From: Leucoraja ocellata
Taxonomy: Eukaryota
NCBI GenBank assembly: GCA_036785375.1
Contig: JAWMAR010000361.1
Location: 806,001-870,000, forward strand
Reading direction: 5' to 3'
Length of the DNA stretch: 64,000 nt
Part shown: positions 18,001-21,000 of the stretch, piece after piece
Position numbering within the stretch: position 1 is the first letter of the stretch
Layout of the letters: each line of letters opens with the position of its first letter
Program-made: the position numbers

Positions 18001-21000
18001 GACTGTGGGAGCTCCAAGCCGCGGGAGCTTCGACCGCTCCGTCGCAGGAGTTTCGATCGCTGTCTGTGGGAACATCGATCGCCCTGACTGTGGACGGTTC
18101 AACTCCCCCGACCGTGGGAGAAAACGAAGAGAGAGGATTCGACTTTATTGCCTTCCATCACAGTGAGGAATGTGGAGGAGTCGCTGTGGTGGATGTTTAT
18201 GTCAAGTTTTTTGTAGTTGTGTGTCTTATTGCTTTTTTGATACGACTGTATGGCAAATCAAATTCCGCGTATGTTGCAAAACATGGCTAATAATTTACGA
18301 TTATGATGATGATTATATCAGCTATGATTGAATGGCAGAGTAGACGATGGGCCGAATGGCCTAATTCTGCTCCTATCAGTTATGACCGTGACCTTATGAA
18401 CAAAGCCGGCCCATGCCATCCATATTAATTTCTACATGTAGAGACACTTCACTTCTCCCATTTCTGAAACCTGATCAGATCATTGATAAAGTGTCACACA
18501 GCGAAACTTCTGCAACGCCAGATGAATGGGCCGGATTGCAATAGATTCGGGCAACACAAAAGTTAATTCTGCATGAGAAATGGTGTTTATAGGGATTATC
18601 TTTAAAGACTTCTTCAGTAGAGCTGTCATGGTGGATCGAAGTTTCTCAATCATCCATCAAGCGTACAATAAAAAAAGTGTTGTTTCCCTGGGGTTGAGGA
18701 GAGCAGTTGTTGCAGATGTGTTTTCTCTGCGTGGTGCCCAACATTGCCATATCATATGAACCTTAGCAGGGAAAAATGCTACAGCGAATGTTGTTTTACT
18801 TAAGCCAAGCAGCTTAGCATTGTAGCTAACTCGACTTGCAAGTCACAAATCTGTGCAAAAAACATAGGGGACTCAGGTGTCAGTGTCAATCTCTGCAAGT
18901 TTAGCGCAAGTAAAAAGAATCAGAGCACTAGCCATGCCTTTGGAATGCCTGCATGAGAACTTGGTGTCTGTATAAAGAATGAAAATGAGGAAGGACTTGT
19001 GGAAGCAGTTTAACCCGGAACTGCAGGTGCTGGTTTACACCGAAGATAGACACAAATTGCTGGAGTAACTGAGTGGCAGCATCTCTGGATAGAAGGACTG
19101 GGTGGCATTTTGGGTCGAGACCCTTCTTCAGACTGAGGAAGGAAATTGAATTAATGGCATTTATGTACAGAGGGATCTCAGGGTCCAAGTCCATAACTCC
19201 CCAGAAAGTGGCCACACATGTAAATAGAGTATGCATGCTTTCAAAAGTCAGGGCATTGTGTACAAGAGTCAGGAAATCGCGATGCAACTTTACAGGACAC
19301 ATTTGGAGCATGGCACGCAGTTCTGGTTGCCCCAGTACTAGAATTATGTGCAGGCTTTGGAAAAGGTGCAGAGGTTTGCCTGAATGATGCCTTGGTTAGG
19401 GGGAGAGGTCGGAAAAACTTGCATTTTATTTTCTTGGAATGTTGAAGTATATAAAGTATATACAATTCTGAGAGTCATATATAAGGTAGACAGTCAGAAT
19501 CTATTCCCAAATGTAAATATCATACACTAGATACGGCCATGTTTAAAGAATTTGTGCAGGGCAAGTTTTTTTTTCCAAGGAAGGTGGTGAGTGTATGTAC
19601 ACACTGTGGATGGCACAATTGTAATCATGTATTATCTTTGGTCAGCACGCATCAAAAGCTTTTCACTGTACCTCGGTTCACGGGACAATAAATGGAACTA
19701 AATTGTTGTAATTGTAACTGTAATTGTTATATGGTTATATGGTTATAAACTCAAATGCCTGAAACACACACTGCTGGGGGTGTTGTGGAAGTGGATATAA
19801 TAGTGGCATTTACCCTTTGGATGGGCTCATAGATATGCAGGCAATCGAGAGATATGGATTATGTGCAGAGACATAAGAATTAGTCTCGGCATCAAGTTTG
19901 GGAAGGACATTGTGGGCCAAAGGGCCTGTTCTTGTGCTGTACTTTACTTTGTTCATTATTACAAGCTTAGTACATTGAAAAATGCTTTACTGATGGTGAA
20001 ATTAATTTGGTCAGTCACCCCTGTAACATAGAAAACATGCAAAGGACCAGCCGGGGTTAGGGTGTCAAGAAGAATTAGTGTTCCTTGGTGAAAGATCAGA
20101 TATTAGTGGAGTAAGTTCATGTTCTCTACCAAATCACTTTTTCAGGGATGAACTCCCTTTCACAGAGCTGTCTTAACATGTGTTTAAGAGGGAACTGCAG
20201 ATGCTGGAGAATCGAAGGTTACACAAAAAAGCTGGAGAAACTCAGCGGGTGCAGCAGCATCTATGGAGCGAAGGAAATAGGCAACGTTTCGGGCCGAAAC
20301 CCTTCTTCAGACTGATCGGGGGCGGGGGTGGGTGGGGACAAGAAAGGAAAAAGGAGGGAAAAGGAGGAGTCTTAACATGTAATGGCAACATCAGCAGTTA
20401 TTCCCAAAAGTGCTTCATTGCAGTAACAATGTGTAGGAAGGAACTGCAGATGCTGGTTGAAACCGAATATAGATCCAAAATGCTGGAGTAACTCAGCGGG
20501 ACAGGCAGCATCTTTGGAGAGAAGGAATGGGTGACGTTTCGGGAGGAGACCCTTCTTCAGACTGGGAAGGGTCTCGCCCCGAAACATCACTCATTCCTTC
20601 TCTCCAGAGATGCTGCCTGTCCCGCTGAGTTACTCCAGCATGTTGTGTCTACATTGCAGTAACAGATAGGTTGGCCCTTGTGACAATGAACCACTTGTGG
20701 GTCCCGACAGTTGTTATGGTCTTATATCTTTCCATTAGAGGACATTCTAAGAATAGCGCAAATGGTTCACCTTATAAAAAAGGGGTAGTGGGGATAATAG
20801 TTCATCTTAAGGCATGTAAATGGATCAAGGATTAATATTTTATCCCAGTGTATTTTTGGCTGTGAAATATCACTTCAAGGCTCTTAATACAGAGTTGAGG
20901 TTATCACCATGTTGACTCCTGTGAGAATCAAGTACTCAAAAGGATTGCTTTTGGGGCGGTATAACCTAATGGTATGTAATGTACATTGTTCAATGTTATT

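What the first reader, a model, noticed from the sequence alone, without database searches (positions are those of the whole stretch)
20416..20664. Short Penelope-derived fold-back units inserted as discrete TSD-bounded hairpins
Seen: roughly 15 units of ~110-230 bp, each made of two head-to-head copies of a PLE 3' terminal repeat with no coding sequence. Several have clean TSDs of variable length: 13 bp here, 16 bp (54027/54265), 12 bp (54491/54693) and 9 bp (58482/58703). Half-units also have TSDs: 11 bp (14450/14559) and 12 bp (20170/20369). The fold point differs in every copy. Known: PLEs often carry inverted terminal repeats and make variable TSDs. Inference: the hairpins look like MITEs but are probably primary retro-insertion products, re-made at each event by fold-back during reverse transcription rather than copied from one master palindrome. 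At about one per 4 kb they would seed any host pre-mRNA with ~90-bp dsRNA stems.
Basis: partly seen in the sequence, partly recalled or inferred. Interest (0 to 1): 0.7.

Follow-up and report, generated by a model that had tools for sequence, protein, structure and literature searches.

The report
Penelope retrotransposon ends inserted as hairpins
The short hairpin-shaped repeats are real: they are stubs of a Penelope-like jumping gene that insert as two copies joined head to head, a known habit of this element family seen here in miniature.

Summary
The unit at 20429-20651 is a 223-bp inverted repeat between two exact 13-bp copies of target DNA. The window holds 17 such head-to-head units of 113-239 bp. 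Five have target-site duplications (TSDs) that beat chance. A sixth is missing from a paralogous copy of its site.

The repeat is the antisense of the 3' end of an ORF-bearing element. The ORF tail matches the C-terminus of shark and ray proteins that combine a reverse transcriptase (RT) with a GIY-YIG endonuclease. The units also show three signatures printed for Penelope-like elements (PLEs): variable TSDs, a ~36-nt "tail" on one arm only (13 of 17 units, never both), and a minimal hammerhead-like core.

The two arms of a unit match in age and subfamily. Fold points and outer ends differ between units. So each unit was made afresh in one insertion, not copied from a master palindrome or moved as a DNA MITE.

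In 4 of 8 informative units the arm holding the unique centre lacks the tail that its partner carries. One further insertion is an inversion whose two segments do not overlap. Priming from both cut target strands fits better.

This is a known PLE hallmark in a new family.

The parts
20416..20428 (.). Left copy of the 13-bp target-site duplication of the focal unit
   Evidence: Exact match to 20652-20664 (p=0.0017 against 3000 random placements)
20429..20565 (-). Left arm. It is the antisense of the element's 3' end on the + strand, profile positions 1-137. It includes the ~36-nt tail (20429-20465) and owns the 8-10 nt unique centre.
20533..20560 (-). Minimal hammerhead-like core on the sense strand of the left arm. 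It consists of CUGANGA, one extra nucleotide, a G-C closed helix II, GAAA, a palindromic ACGU and C.
   Evidence: Pattern match with 0 mismatches. Not called by Rfam.
20566..20651 (+). Right arm, with element sense on the + strand. It starts inside at about profile position 128, ends outside at about position 41 and has no tail.
20652..20664 (.). Right copy of the 13-bp target-site duplication
20182..20368 (-). Neighbouring single (non-hairpin) 5'-truncated copy of a second subfamily. It holds the terminal unit with tail plus ~50 nt of upstream purine-rich UTR, between 12-bp TSD copies at 20170-20181 and 20369-20380.
   Evidence: (D4)
5495..5650 (.). Hairpin nested in an older long copy of the same family (5310-5910). 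A ~14-bp target is duplicated at 5481-5494 and 5651-5664 (11 of 14 identical).
   Evidence: The paralogous long copy 17608-17700 lacks the hairpin and carries the target once.
8072..8254 (.). Hairpin unit (old). Tail on the left arm.
   Evidence: No TSD above chance.
10482..10667 (.). Hairpin unit. Tail on the left arm; the unique centre belongs to the right, no-tail arm.
   Evidence: No TSD above chance.
15401..15638 (.). Hairpin unit. Tail on the left arm; 8 extra nt at the centre.
25748..25932 (.). Hairpin unit with the largest unique centre (36 nt). Tail on the right arm. The arms disagree at one diagnostic site.
31687..31858 (.). Hairpin unit of an old subfamily. Neither arm has a tail.
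32954..33110 (.). Hairpin unit whose second arm covers only profile positions 91-133, so its outer end is not at a usual start site.
34778..34956 (.). Hairpin unit. Neither arm has a tail.
34966..35155 (.). Hairpin unit, 9 bp from the previous one.
44490..44696 (.). Hairpin unit, the most diverged (about 30% from the consensus).
53428..53666 (.). Hairpin unit. Tail on the right arm.
54043..54264 (.). Hairpin unit between exact 16-bp TSD copies (54027-54042 and 54265-54280).
   Evidence: p=0.0013
54503..54692 (.). Hairpin unit between exact 12-bp TSD copies (54491-54502 and 54693-54704).
   Evidence: p=0.0033
55558..55752 (.). Hairpin unit. Tail on the left arm; the centre belongs to the no-tail arm.
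57028..57140 (.). Shortest hairpin (113 bp), between 12-bp TSD copies (57016-57027 and 57141-57152, 11 of 12 identical). The left, no-tail arm reaches position 76. The right, tailed arm reaches only position 69.
58495..58702 (.). Hairpin unit of the second subfamily. The arms are 95% alike. It lies between 13-bp TSD copies (58482-58494 and 58703-58715, 12 of 13 identical).
46961..47252 (-). Composite insertion between exact 14-bp TSD copies (46947-46960 and 47253-47266). The antisense terminal unit (positions 49-134) is joined to the sense segment that lies just upstream of it in the element: the last 37 codons, the stop and ~70 nt of UTR. This is an inversion without overlap.
47052..47162 (-). 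Last 37 codons of the element's ORF, the C-terminal end of a GIY-YIG endonuclease domain.
   Evidence: 83% identity to the C-terminus of P0001. 60% over 35 aa to P0003, E 2e-13. Pfam alone gives no call.
2422..2867 (-). Long 5'-truncated copy: ORF tail (2793-2858), ~240-nt UTR and the terminal unit without tail.
39275..39612 (-). Long 5'-truncated copy with tail. Its upstream part is cut off by another repeat at 39642.

Best explanation
The units are heavily 5'-truncated insertions of the 3' end of a Penelope-like retrotransposon (RT plus C-terminal GIY-YIG endonuclease).

Shown: each unit arose in one integration event as two copies joined at their 5' ends, with the two 3' ends facing outward and flanked by a duplication of 9-16 bp of target.

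Inferred, about even odds: after staggered cuts, the 3' ends of both target strands each prime reverse transcription of element RNA. Priming starts at one of two start sites about 36 nt apart, so one arm carries the 'tail' and the other does not. Both cDNAs stop within about 70-136 nt. Their ends are then joined, so each cDNA serves as template for the other's second strand. When the second strand primes further inside the RNA, the result is a stub arm or a plain inversion.

The hairpin has no function for the element. Where it is transcribed within a host RNA it would form a long stem of about 30-80 bp.
For: PLE identity:
- The repeat is antisense to the end of an ORF-bearing element.
- The ORF tail matches skate, shark and ray proteins. 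Among these, P0002, P0006 and P0008 hold both RVT_1 and GIY-YIG.
- Read by eye in the sequences: two cysteines between GIY and YIG in P0001-P0003 and P0006; RYIDD in P0002, P0003 and P0006; a DKG motif in P0006.

Single event:
- 17 head-to-head pairs against 1 tail-to-tail neighbour, p = 1.4e-4.
- TSDs enclose whole units.
- An empty paralogous site exists for one unit.
- Arm divergences are correlated: Spearman 0.66, p = 0.004; permutation P = 1e-4.
- Partner arms are closer to each other than to non-partner arms: 18.4% against 23.4% divergence, P = 1e-4.
- Diagnostic columns agree between partner arms 12:1, 13:1 and 9:2.

Two-ended priming:
- Outer ends of both arms fall in the same two zones as the ends of single copies, profile positions 2-11 or about 23-51, in 33 of 34 arms.
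- The tail is on exactly one arm in 13 of 17 units and on both in none, P = 0.021.
- The unique centre belongs to the no-tail arm in 4 of 8 informative units, including TSD-bounded 57028-57140.
- The inversion without overlap at 46961-47252 needs a second priming event on RNA.

Printed:
- An anole PLE protein cleaves and extends both target strands. It starts reverse transcription at two adjacent internal sites whose spacing equals the tail (PMC11167929, main text read).
- Inverted copies with one tail are typical of PLEs (PMC3846280, PMC8557442; passages).
Against: - The inner ends of the two arms are closer to each other than chance: mean difference 10.7 nt against 17.3, P = 0.009. Without the pairs in which both arms end at 131-136, P = 0.059. 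The median unique centre is only 11 nt. Independent priming does not predict this unless both cDNAs run to a shared RNA 5' end.
- The long copies 2422, 5310, 22461 and 39275 have no inverted arm at their 5' ends in the profile hits, against 17 of the short units.
- The in-vitro work is on another species' element.
- No RT or complete endonuclease of this family lies in the window, so the partner is known only through database proteins.
- Only 5 of 17 hairpins have a TSD above chance.
- Profile end coordinates are uncertain by a few nucleotides in old copies.
Confidence: 0.5

Rival explanations
1. Fold-back (self-priming). One target-primed cDNA reaches the end of its template, snaps back and copies itself. 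The hairpin is then opened and sealed into the target.
For: - The inner ends of the arms are coupled (P = 0.009).
- The unique centres are short: 3-36 nt, median 11.
- Arms belong to the same subfamily.
- Hairpins are seen with short copies, not with the four long ones.
- Self-priming has been proposed for PLE inverted repeats that have palindromes at the junction (PMC3846280, passage read).
Against: - In 4 of 8 informative one-tail units the arm owning the centre lacks the tail that its supposed copy carries. This is clear in TSD-bounded 57028-57140.
- The outer end of the second arm sits at the element's usual no-tail end and not at scattered positions.
- The insertion at 46961-47252 has two non-overlapping segments in opposite orientation.
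- No unit has tails on both arms, so an extra trimming step would be needed.
Confidence: 0.3
2. A non-autonomous hairpin family. One or a few master palindromes are transcribed and retro-copied whole, or moved as DNA MITEs by a transposase.
For: - 15 of 34 paired arms end at profile positions 131-136, so many units have a similar fold point.
- The units look like MITEs in size and shape.
Against: - Fold points range from 69 to 136, and outer ends differ between units.
- Arms share few private changes, for example 1 shared among 6 + 6 in the focal unit.
- TSD length varies from 9 to 16 bp.
- The two arms end at different positions, so there are no matched terminal inverted repeats.
- No transposase was found among 53 ORFs of at least 110 aa.
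- Single copies and long copies share the same 3' ends.
Confidence: 0.07
3. Two separate insertions. The element's endonuclease homes to existing copies, so a new copy lands beside an old one in the opposite orientation.
For: - The anole PLE complex nicks within its own terminal repeat as well as elsewhere (PMC11167929, main text read).
- One hairpin does sit inside an older copy of the family.
- 12 of 17 hairpins have no TSD above chance.
Against: - The arms of a unit have matching divergence and subfamily.
- TSDs enclose the pair, not single arms.
- Joins are always 5' to 5' with 0-10 nt between the arms, in 17 of 17 units.
Confidence: 0.05

Closest known systems
Inverted 5'-truncated copy with optional 30-40 bp 'tail' in endonuclease-bearing Penelope-like elements (Arkhipova et al. 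2013, PMC3846280; Craig et al. 2021, PMC8557442; Frangieh et al. 2024, PMC11167929)
   Same: - Head-to-head joining.
- A tail on one end only.
- The inverted copy is shorter by about the length of the tail.
- Short TSDs of varying length.
- Strong 5' truncation.
- A hammerhead-like motif in the terminal repeat.
- A GIY-YIG ORF end upstream of the repeat.
   Different: - Here both copies are cut down to 40-137 nt, so the whole insertion is a bare hairpin of 113-239 bp with no ORF and no direct pseudo-LTR.
- No partial tandems are seen in this window.
- The family is from a skate-like genome. I found no paper on it in searches.
Twin priming, the origin of 5' inversions in LINE-1 insertions (Ostertag and Kazazian 2001; recalled, not read here)
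   Same: - A second target strand primes on the RNA.
- The two cDNAs are joined in the middle.
- One TSD surrounds the whole insertion.
- The insertion at 46961-47252 has exactly this geometry, with adjoining breakpoints.
   Different: In the hairpins the second priming is at the element's own start site and not at a chance internal site. Both arms therefore copy the same stretch and form a palindrome. The enzyme is a GIY-YIG PLE protein, not an L1 ORF2 protein.
Miniature inverted-repeat transposable elements (DNA MITEs)
   Same: Size of 100-250 bp, hairpin shape, no coding capacity, TSDs, and high density in gene-poor and intronic DNA.
   Different: - No fixed ends.
- Arms of unequal extent.
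- TSDs of 9-16 bp.
- The arms are the 3' end of a retroelement.
- Single and long copies share the same 3' termini.
- No transposase partner.
Non-LTR retrozymes and Sm-alpha-type hammerhead repeats, proposed as non-autonomous PLE derivatives (Cervera and de la Pena 2014, PMC4209133; Li et al. 2026 preprint 10.64898/2026.07.22.740005; passages read)
   Same: Short non-coding PLE-derived sequence carrying a type I or minimal hammerhead core. The 2014 paper notes pairs of minimal hammerheads 100-700 bp apart on opposite strands.
   Different: Retrozymes are head-to-tail tandem arrays thought to give circular RNAs. No tandem array of this repeat is present here, and Rfam does not call a hammerhead.

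Membership tests
Penelope-like elements with endonuclease (EN+ PLE) | A single ORF ending in a GIY-YIG endonuclease lies upstream of the terminal repeat | tested here: met
   ORF tails of 22-37 codons lie upstream of the repeat, on the strand opposite to the query repeat, at 2793-2858, 5812-5886 and 47052-47162, with an inverted piece at 17828-17893. The tail matches the C-terminus of GIY-YIG-bearing proteins. Pfam does not call these short pieces by themselves.
Penelope-like elements with endonuclease (EN+ PLE) | PLE-type (telomerase-related) reverse transcriptase in the same ORF | not testable with these tools
   No RT of this family is in the window. The only RT (39731-40138) is LINE-like by eye and is separated from the repeat by another element. 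Database relatives P0002, P0006 and P0008 hold RVT_1 plus GIY-YIG. No RT phylogeny was made.
Penelope-like elements with endonuclease (EN+ PLE) | [quoted passage not shown] | tested here: inconclusive
   Seen by eye in relatives P0001-P0003 and P0006. This part of the ORF is missing from every copy in the window.
Penelope-like elements with endonuclease (EN+ PLE) | Inverted 5'-truncated copy adjoining the insertion head to head | tested here: met
   17 head-to-head pairs against 1 tail-to-tail neighbour.
Penelope-like elements with endonuclease (EN+ PLE) | Optional 30-40 bp tail at one end only | tested here: met
   A ~36-nt tail lies on one arm in 13 of 17 units, on both in 0 and on neither in 4; P = 0.021. 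8 of 18 single hits carry it.
Penelope-like elements with endonuclease (EN+ PLE) | TSDs of variable length | tested here: met
   TSDs of 10 to 16 bp in 8 units, plus 12 and 14 bp and about 14 bp. 12 of 17 hairpins have none above chance.
Penelope-like elements with endonuclease (EN+ PLE) | Pseudo-LTRs from partial head-to-tail tandems | tested here: not met
   The closest same-strand neighbours are 81 bp apart and are separate insertions. All copies here are too truncated for this feature to show.
Penelope-like elements with endonuclease (EN+ PLE) | Hammerhead ribozyme motif in the terminal repeat | tested here: inconclusive
   A core pattern with the printed minimal-hammerhead traits (an extra nucleotide after position 9, a G-C closing pair of helix II, a palindromic helix III) matches 17 times with at most 2 mismatches against 0 expected, always on the sense strand (traits from PMC4209133). 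Rfam gives no hammerhead at gathering score, nor at E<=10 in 20100-20800. Helix I is at most 2 bp by eye.
DNA MITE | Fixed terminal inverted repeats, TSD of fixed length, related transposase | tested here: not met
   Unequal arm ends, TSDs of 9-16 bp, and no transposase among 53 ORFs.
SINE (pol III retroposon) | tRNA-, 5S- or 7SL-derived head | tested here: not met
   ARAGORN finds 0 tRNA-like genes. Rfam has 0 hits at gathering score. The repeat continues upstream into an ORF.
Non-LTR retrozyme | Head-to-tail tandem array of hammerhead-bearing units | tested here: not met
   No tandem array of the unit.

The most novel reading that the evidence does not exclude
The mini-hairpins may be more than random truncation products. 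They could be full-length copies of a short RNA that starts at a fixed point just 5' of the hammerhead-like core (profile 131-136, where 15 of 34 paired arms end) and runs to the internal reverse-transcription start sites. A dimeric PLE complex would copy this RNA from both target strands at once, using one start site per strand. That would make them a self-renewing, RT-made class of hairpin retroposon. It would record the two-ended integration step of PLEs base by base and would keep supplying long dsRNA stems to host transcripts.
Probability: 0.15. Interest if true: 0.6.

Novelty: new member of a known kind. Interest (0 to 1): 0.35.

Why it matters
How Penelope-like elements integrate is still unsettled, and so is why they leave tandem and inverted structures. 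These miniature insertions keep both ends, the junction and the TSD within about 200 bp. A genome-wide catalogue could therefore test two-ended priming against self-priming by simple counts: tail placement, ownership of the centre, arm differences in young copies.

For annotation, such units are easily mistaken for MITEs or for microRNA-like hairpins. Rfam gives sub-threshold microRNA look-alike hits on the focal unit. At about one unit per 4 kb they would put long stems into many transcripts. That may matter for RNA editing and small-RNA pathways, but it was not tested.

Tried and rejected
- Rfam on the whole window at gathering score gave 0 hits. At E<=10 on 20100-20800 it gave only sub-threshold microRNA and other look-alikes that reflect the long stem, and no hammerhead.
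- Pfam on 53 ORFs of at least 110 aa gave one LINE-like RT fragment (39731-40138), one ALKBH8_N match (33292-33741) and one weak KA1 match. I first took the RT for the partner. I rejected it because another repeat (39642-39768) separates it from the unit and its motifs are LINE-like by eye.
- Pfam on read-through translations upstream of four long copies gave nothing useful. Pfam on the four short ORF tails gave nothing.
- The protein Atlas was not available for the ORF tail.
- A 37-aa query was too short for the homology search. It was resent as 41 aa.
- P0001, the best hit, looks like a chimeric gene model: a LINE-like RT joined to a PLE endonuclease. It was used only for its C-terminal part.
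- The single-arm sense RNA is not unusually structured (z = -0.7), so I make no claim of a start-site stem-loop.
- A length-coupled model, with both polymerases stopping after equal synthesis, was rejected. It predicts the tailed arm to end about 36 positions short of its partner. The observed differences centre near zero (the offsets were worked out by hand from those tables).
- A search for microhomology at the junctions, done by eye on three units, gave no clear pattern.
Repbase and Dfam could not be consulted, so the family may already have a library entry.
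Full report
**What is there**

The stretch 20416-20664 holds an inverted repeat. Its arms are 90 nt long, 90% complementary and 10 nt apart. Two exact 13-bp direct repeats, at 20416-20428 and 20652-20664, flank it. In a scan that scores the best direct repeat across the two borders of a unit, this reached 13. Only 0.17% of 3000 random placements did as well. As RNA the 223-nt unit folds at -167 kcal/mol, with z = -19 against shuffles.

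**The family in the window**

A blastn search with the left arm gave 51 matches. A 136-position profile built from 13 copies gave 52 hits.
- 34 hits form 17 adjacent pairs in the order '+ then -', with 0-10 nt or a few overlapping nt between the arms. Units are 113-239 bp long.
- Only one neighbour pair in the opposite order is close (9 bp apart), and it is the gap between two adjoining hairpins. The next is 86 bp apart. Same-strand neighbours are at least 81 bp apart.
- 17 against 1 gives p = 1.4e-4.
- Stems hold 24-83 predicted pairs, median 64. The unique centres are 3-36 nt, median 11.

**Target-site duplications**

- 8 of 35 units (5 of 17 hairpins, 3 of 18 single hits) reach p<=0.02, far more than chance (p = 4e-7).
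- Twelve hairpins show no TSD above chance. Most of these are old, at 7-33% from the consensus.
- One of the twelve (5495-5650) sits inside an older long copy of the same family. A paralogous long copy (17608-17700) lacks the hairpin and carries the ~14-bp target once.

**What the repeat is**

Five copies run on beyond profile position 136 for 300-450 bp. On the strand opposite to the query repeat this extension ends in a short ORF tail. The query repeat is therefore the antisense of the 3' end of an ORF-bearing element.
- A 41-aa stretch holding the last 37 codons at 47052-47162 is 83% identical to the C-terminus of a little-skate protein, P0001.
- The endonuclease part of P0001 finds whale shark, devil ray, zebra shark and bamboo shark proteins, and two unnamed ones.
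- P0002, P0006 and P0008 carry both RVT_1 and GIY-YIG.
- By eye, P0001-P0003 and P0006 have two cysteines between GIY and YIG. P0002, P0003 and P0006 have RYIDD, and P0006 has a DKG motif. Craig et al. 2021 name the cysteine pair and the DKG motif as PLE traits (PMC8557442, passages).
- The window peptide aligns to P0003 at 60% over 35 residues, E 2e-13.
- Pfam does not call the short tails alone.
- No RT of this family is in the window. The one RT fragment (39731-40138) is LINE-like by eye and belongs to another element.

**Further PLE signatures**

- Outer ends of arms and of single copies fall in two zones, profile positions 2-11 and about 23-51. Where TSDs fix the ends, they lie at positions 1-8 and 36-42 (positions read by eye). 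The ~36 nt between the zones is the 'tail'.
- The tail is on exactly one arm in 13 of 17 units, on both in none and on neither in four. The chance of no double tail, with 13 tails spread at random over 34 arms, is 0.021. It is on 8 of 18 single hits.
- This matches print. Arkhipova et al. 2013 describe an inverted terminal repeat 37 bp shorter than the direct ones, a 31-bp tail optionally on one of the inverted repeats, and 8-10 bp TSDs (PMC3846280, passages). Craig et al. 2021 describe the inverted 5'-truncated copy and a 30-40 bp tail often at one end only. Frangieh et al. 2024 show that the tail equals the distance between two adjacent internal reverse-transcription start sites (PMC11167929, main text).
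- The sense strand carries CUGANGA, one extra nucleotide, a G-C closed helix II, GAAA, a palindromic ACGU and C. This pattern matches 17 times with at most 2 mismatches against 0 expected, always on the sense strand. These are the traits listed for minimal hammerheads of metazoan PLEs (PMC4209133, passages). Rfam does not call it and helix I is at most 2 bp by eye, so I leave ribozyme activity open.

**One event, made anew each time**

- The two arms of a unit have matching divergence from the family consensus: Spearman 0.66, p = 0.004; permutation P = 1e-4.
- They are closer to each other than to arms of other units: 18.4% against 23.4% divergence, P = 1e-4.
- They agree at non-CpG diagnostic columns 12:1, 13:1 and 9:2.
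- They share few private changes, 1 of 6 + 6 in the focal unit. The exception is where both arms belong to a minor subfamily, for example 11 of 13 at 58495.
- Inner ends range from 69 to 136.

Together this excludes a decayed master palindrome, a DNA MITE, and two unrelated insertions side by side.

**Mechanism**

Fold-back of one cDNA has points in its favour.
- Inner ends of partner arms are closer than chance: mean difference 10.7 against 17.3 nt, P = 0.009. Without the pairs in which both arms end at 131-136, P = 0.059.
- The centres are short.

Three results speak against it as the general route.
- In the 8 one-tail units where one arm clearly owns the centre, that arm is the tailed one in 4 and the no-tail one in 4. 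In TSD-bounded 57028-57140 the no-tail arm reaches position 76, while the tailed arm reaches only 69. Neither arm can be a copy of the other.
- The second arm ends at the element's regular no-tail end, not at scattered points.
- The insertion at 46961-47252 lies in an exact 14-bp TSD. It joins the antisense terminal unit to the sense segment that lies just upstream of it in the element, with no overlap. This is the geometry of twin priming as recalled for LINE-1. A looser case lies at 17496-17933, with no TSD above chance.

Printed biochemistry adds that an anole PLE protein cuts and extends both target strands. I therefore put two-ended priming at about 0.5 and fold-back at about 0.3. The coupling of inner ends, and the absence of an inverted arm on the four long copies 2422, 5310, 22461 and 39275, remain against my reading.

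**Known or new**

The structure is a documented hallmark of endonuclease-bearing PLEs. A self-priming explanation is in print. So are siRNAs from inverted Penelope copies in flies (PMC3681739, passages). Pairs of minimal hammerheads on opposite strands were also noted in Schistosoma. What is particular here is the bare, miniature form and its density. I found no paper on this family or on such mini-hairpins in cartilaginous fish in searches. Those searches cover open-licence papers and bioRxiv only. Repbase, Dfam and all supplementary files were out of reach.

**Left open**

No other genomic copies or orthologous sites could be fetched, so everything rests on one 64-kb window. The effect on host RNAs was not tested.

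Noticed in passing
window 39642-39768; also 12742-12868, 23443-23569, 31179-31305, 41429-41556, 56331-56459, 57431-57557, 58214-58339, 61781-61907: A 127-bp segment is 94-99% identical among nine places. The ~570-bp repeat that contains it (41101-41672, 57307-57879, 61661-62229) is only about 88% alike overall. One copy ends beside a (TTTCTATG)n run at 31406-31435, which recalls CR1-type LINE or SINE tails (recalled). Why the inner piece is so much better kept is unexplained.
   Followed up: partly
window 39731-40700 (-), with 40094-40138: A decayed LINE-like RT (RVT_1) carries a 45-bp piece of the PLE terminal unit, 98% like the subfamily at 20217-20261. It sits within the RT reading frame.
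   Followed up: no
profile positions 131-136 of the repeat, e.g. window 20560-20565, 15530-15535, 53532-53537: 15 of 34 paired arms and several single copies end at the same point, just 5' of the hammerhead-like core on the sense strand. Long copies read through it. It could be an RNA 5' end or a strong stop for the reverse transcriptase.
   Followed up: partly
window 17496-17933: A long antisense copy (17496-17826) meets a ~105-nt sense piece covering the ORF end (17828-17933), with a 27-nt inverted overlap. This is an inversion-type insertion like 46961-47252, but without a TSD above chance. A (TGAATC)6 run lies 24 bp from its 3' end.
   Followed up: partly
window 9876-10027: The 'single' copy at 9892-10027 (-) is followed at its 5' end by a 16-nt inverted stub of the same repeat, about positions 116-131. 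This would be a hairpin with a very short second arm.
   Followed up: partly
database proteins P0001, P0007, P0009: Gene models named neuromedin-U receptor 1 (Rhinoraja longicauda) and myocardin isoform X3 (Leucoraja erinacea) contain stretches like the PLE endonuclease. P0001 joins a LINE-like RT to it. These are either exonised transposon pieces or annotation artefacts.
   Followed up: no
window 33292-33741 (+): An ORF matches Pfam ALKBH8_N (E 2.4e-9). It was not examined further.
   Followed up: no
window 15536-15543: The centre of hairpin 15401-15638 holds 8 extra nucleotides that look like a second, tiny inverted copy of positions ~122-130 (by eye). This hints at more than one template switch.
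   Followed up: no
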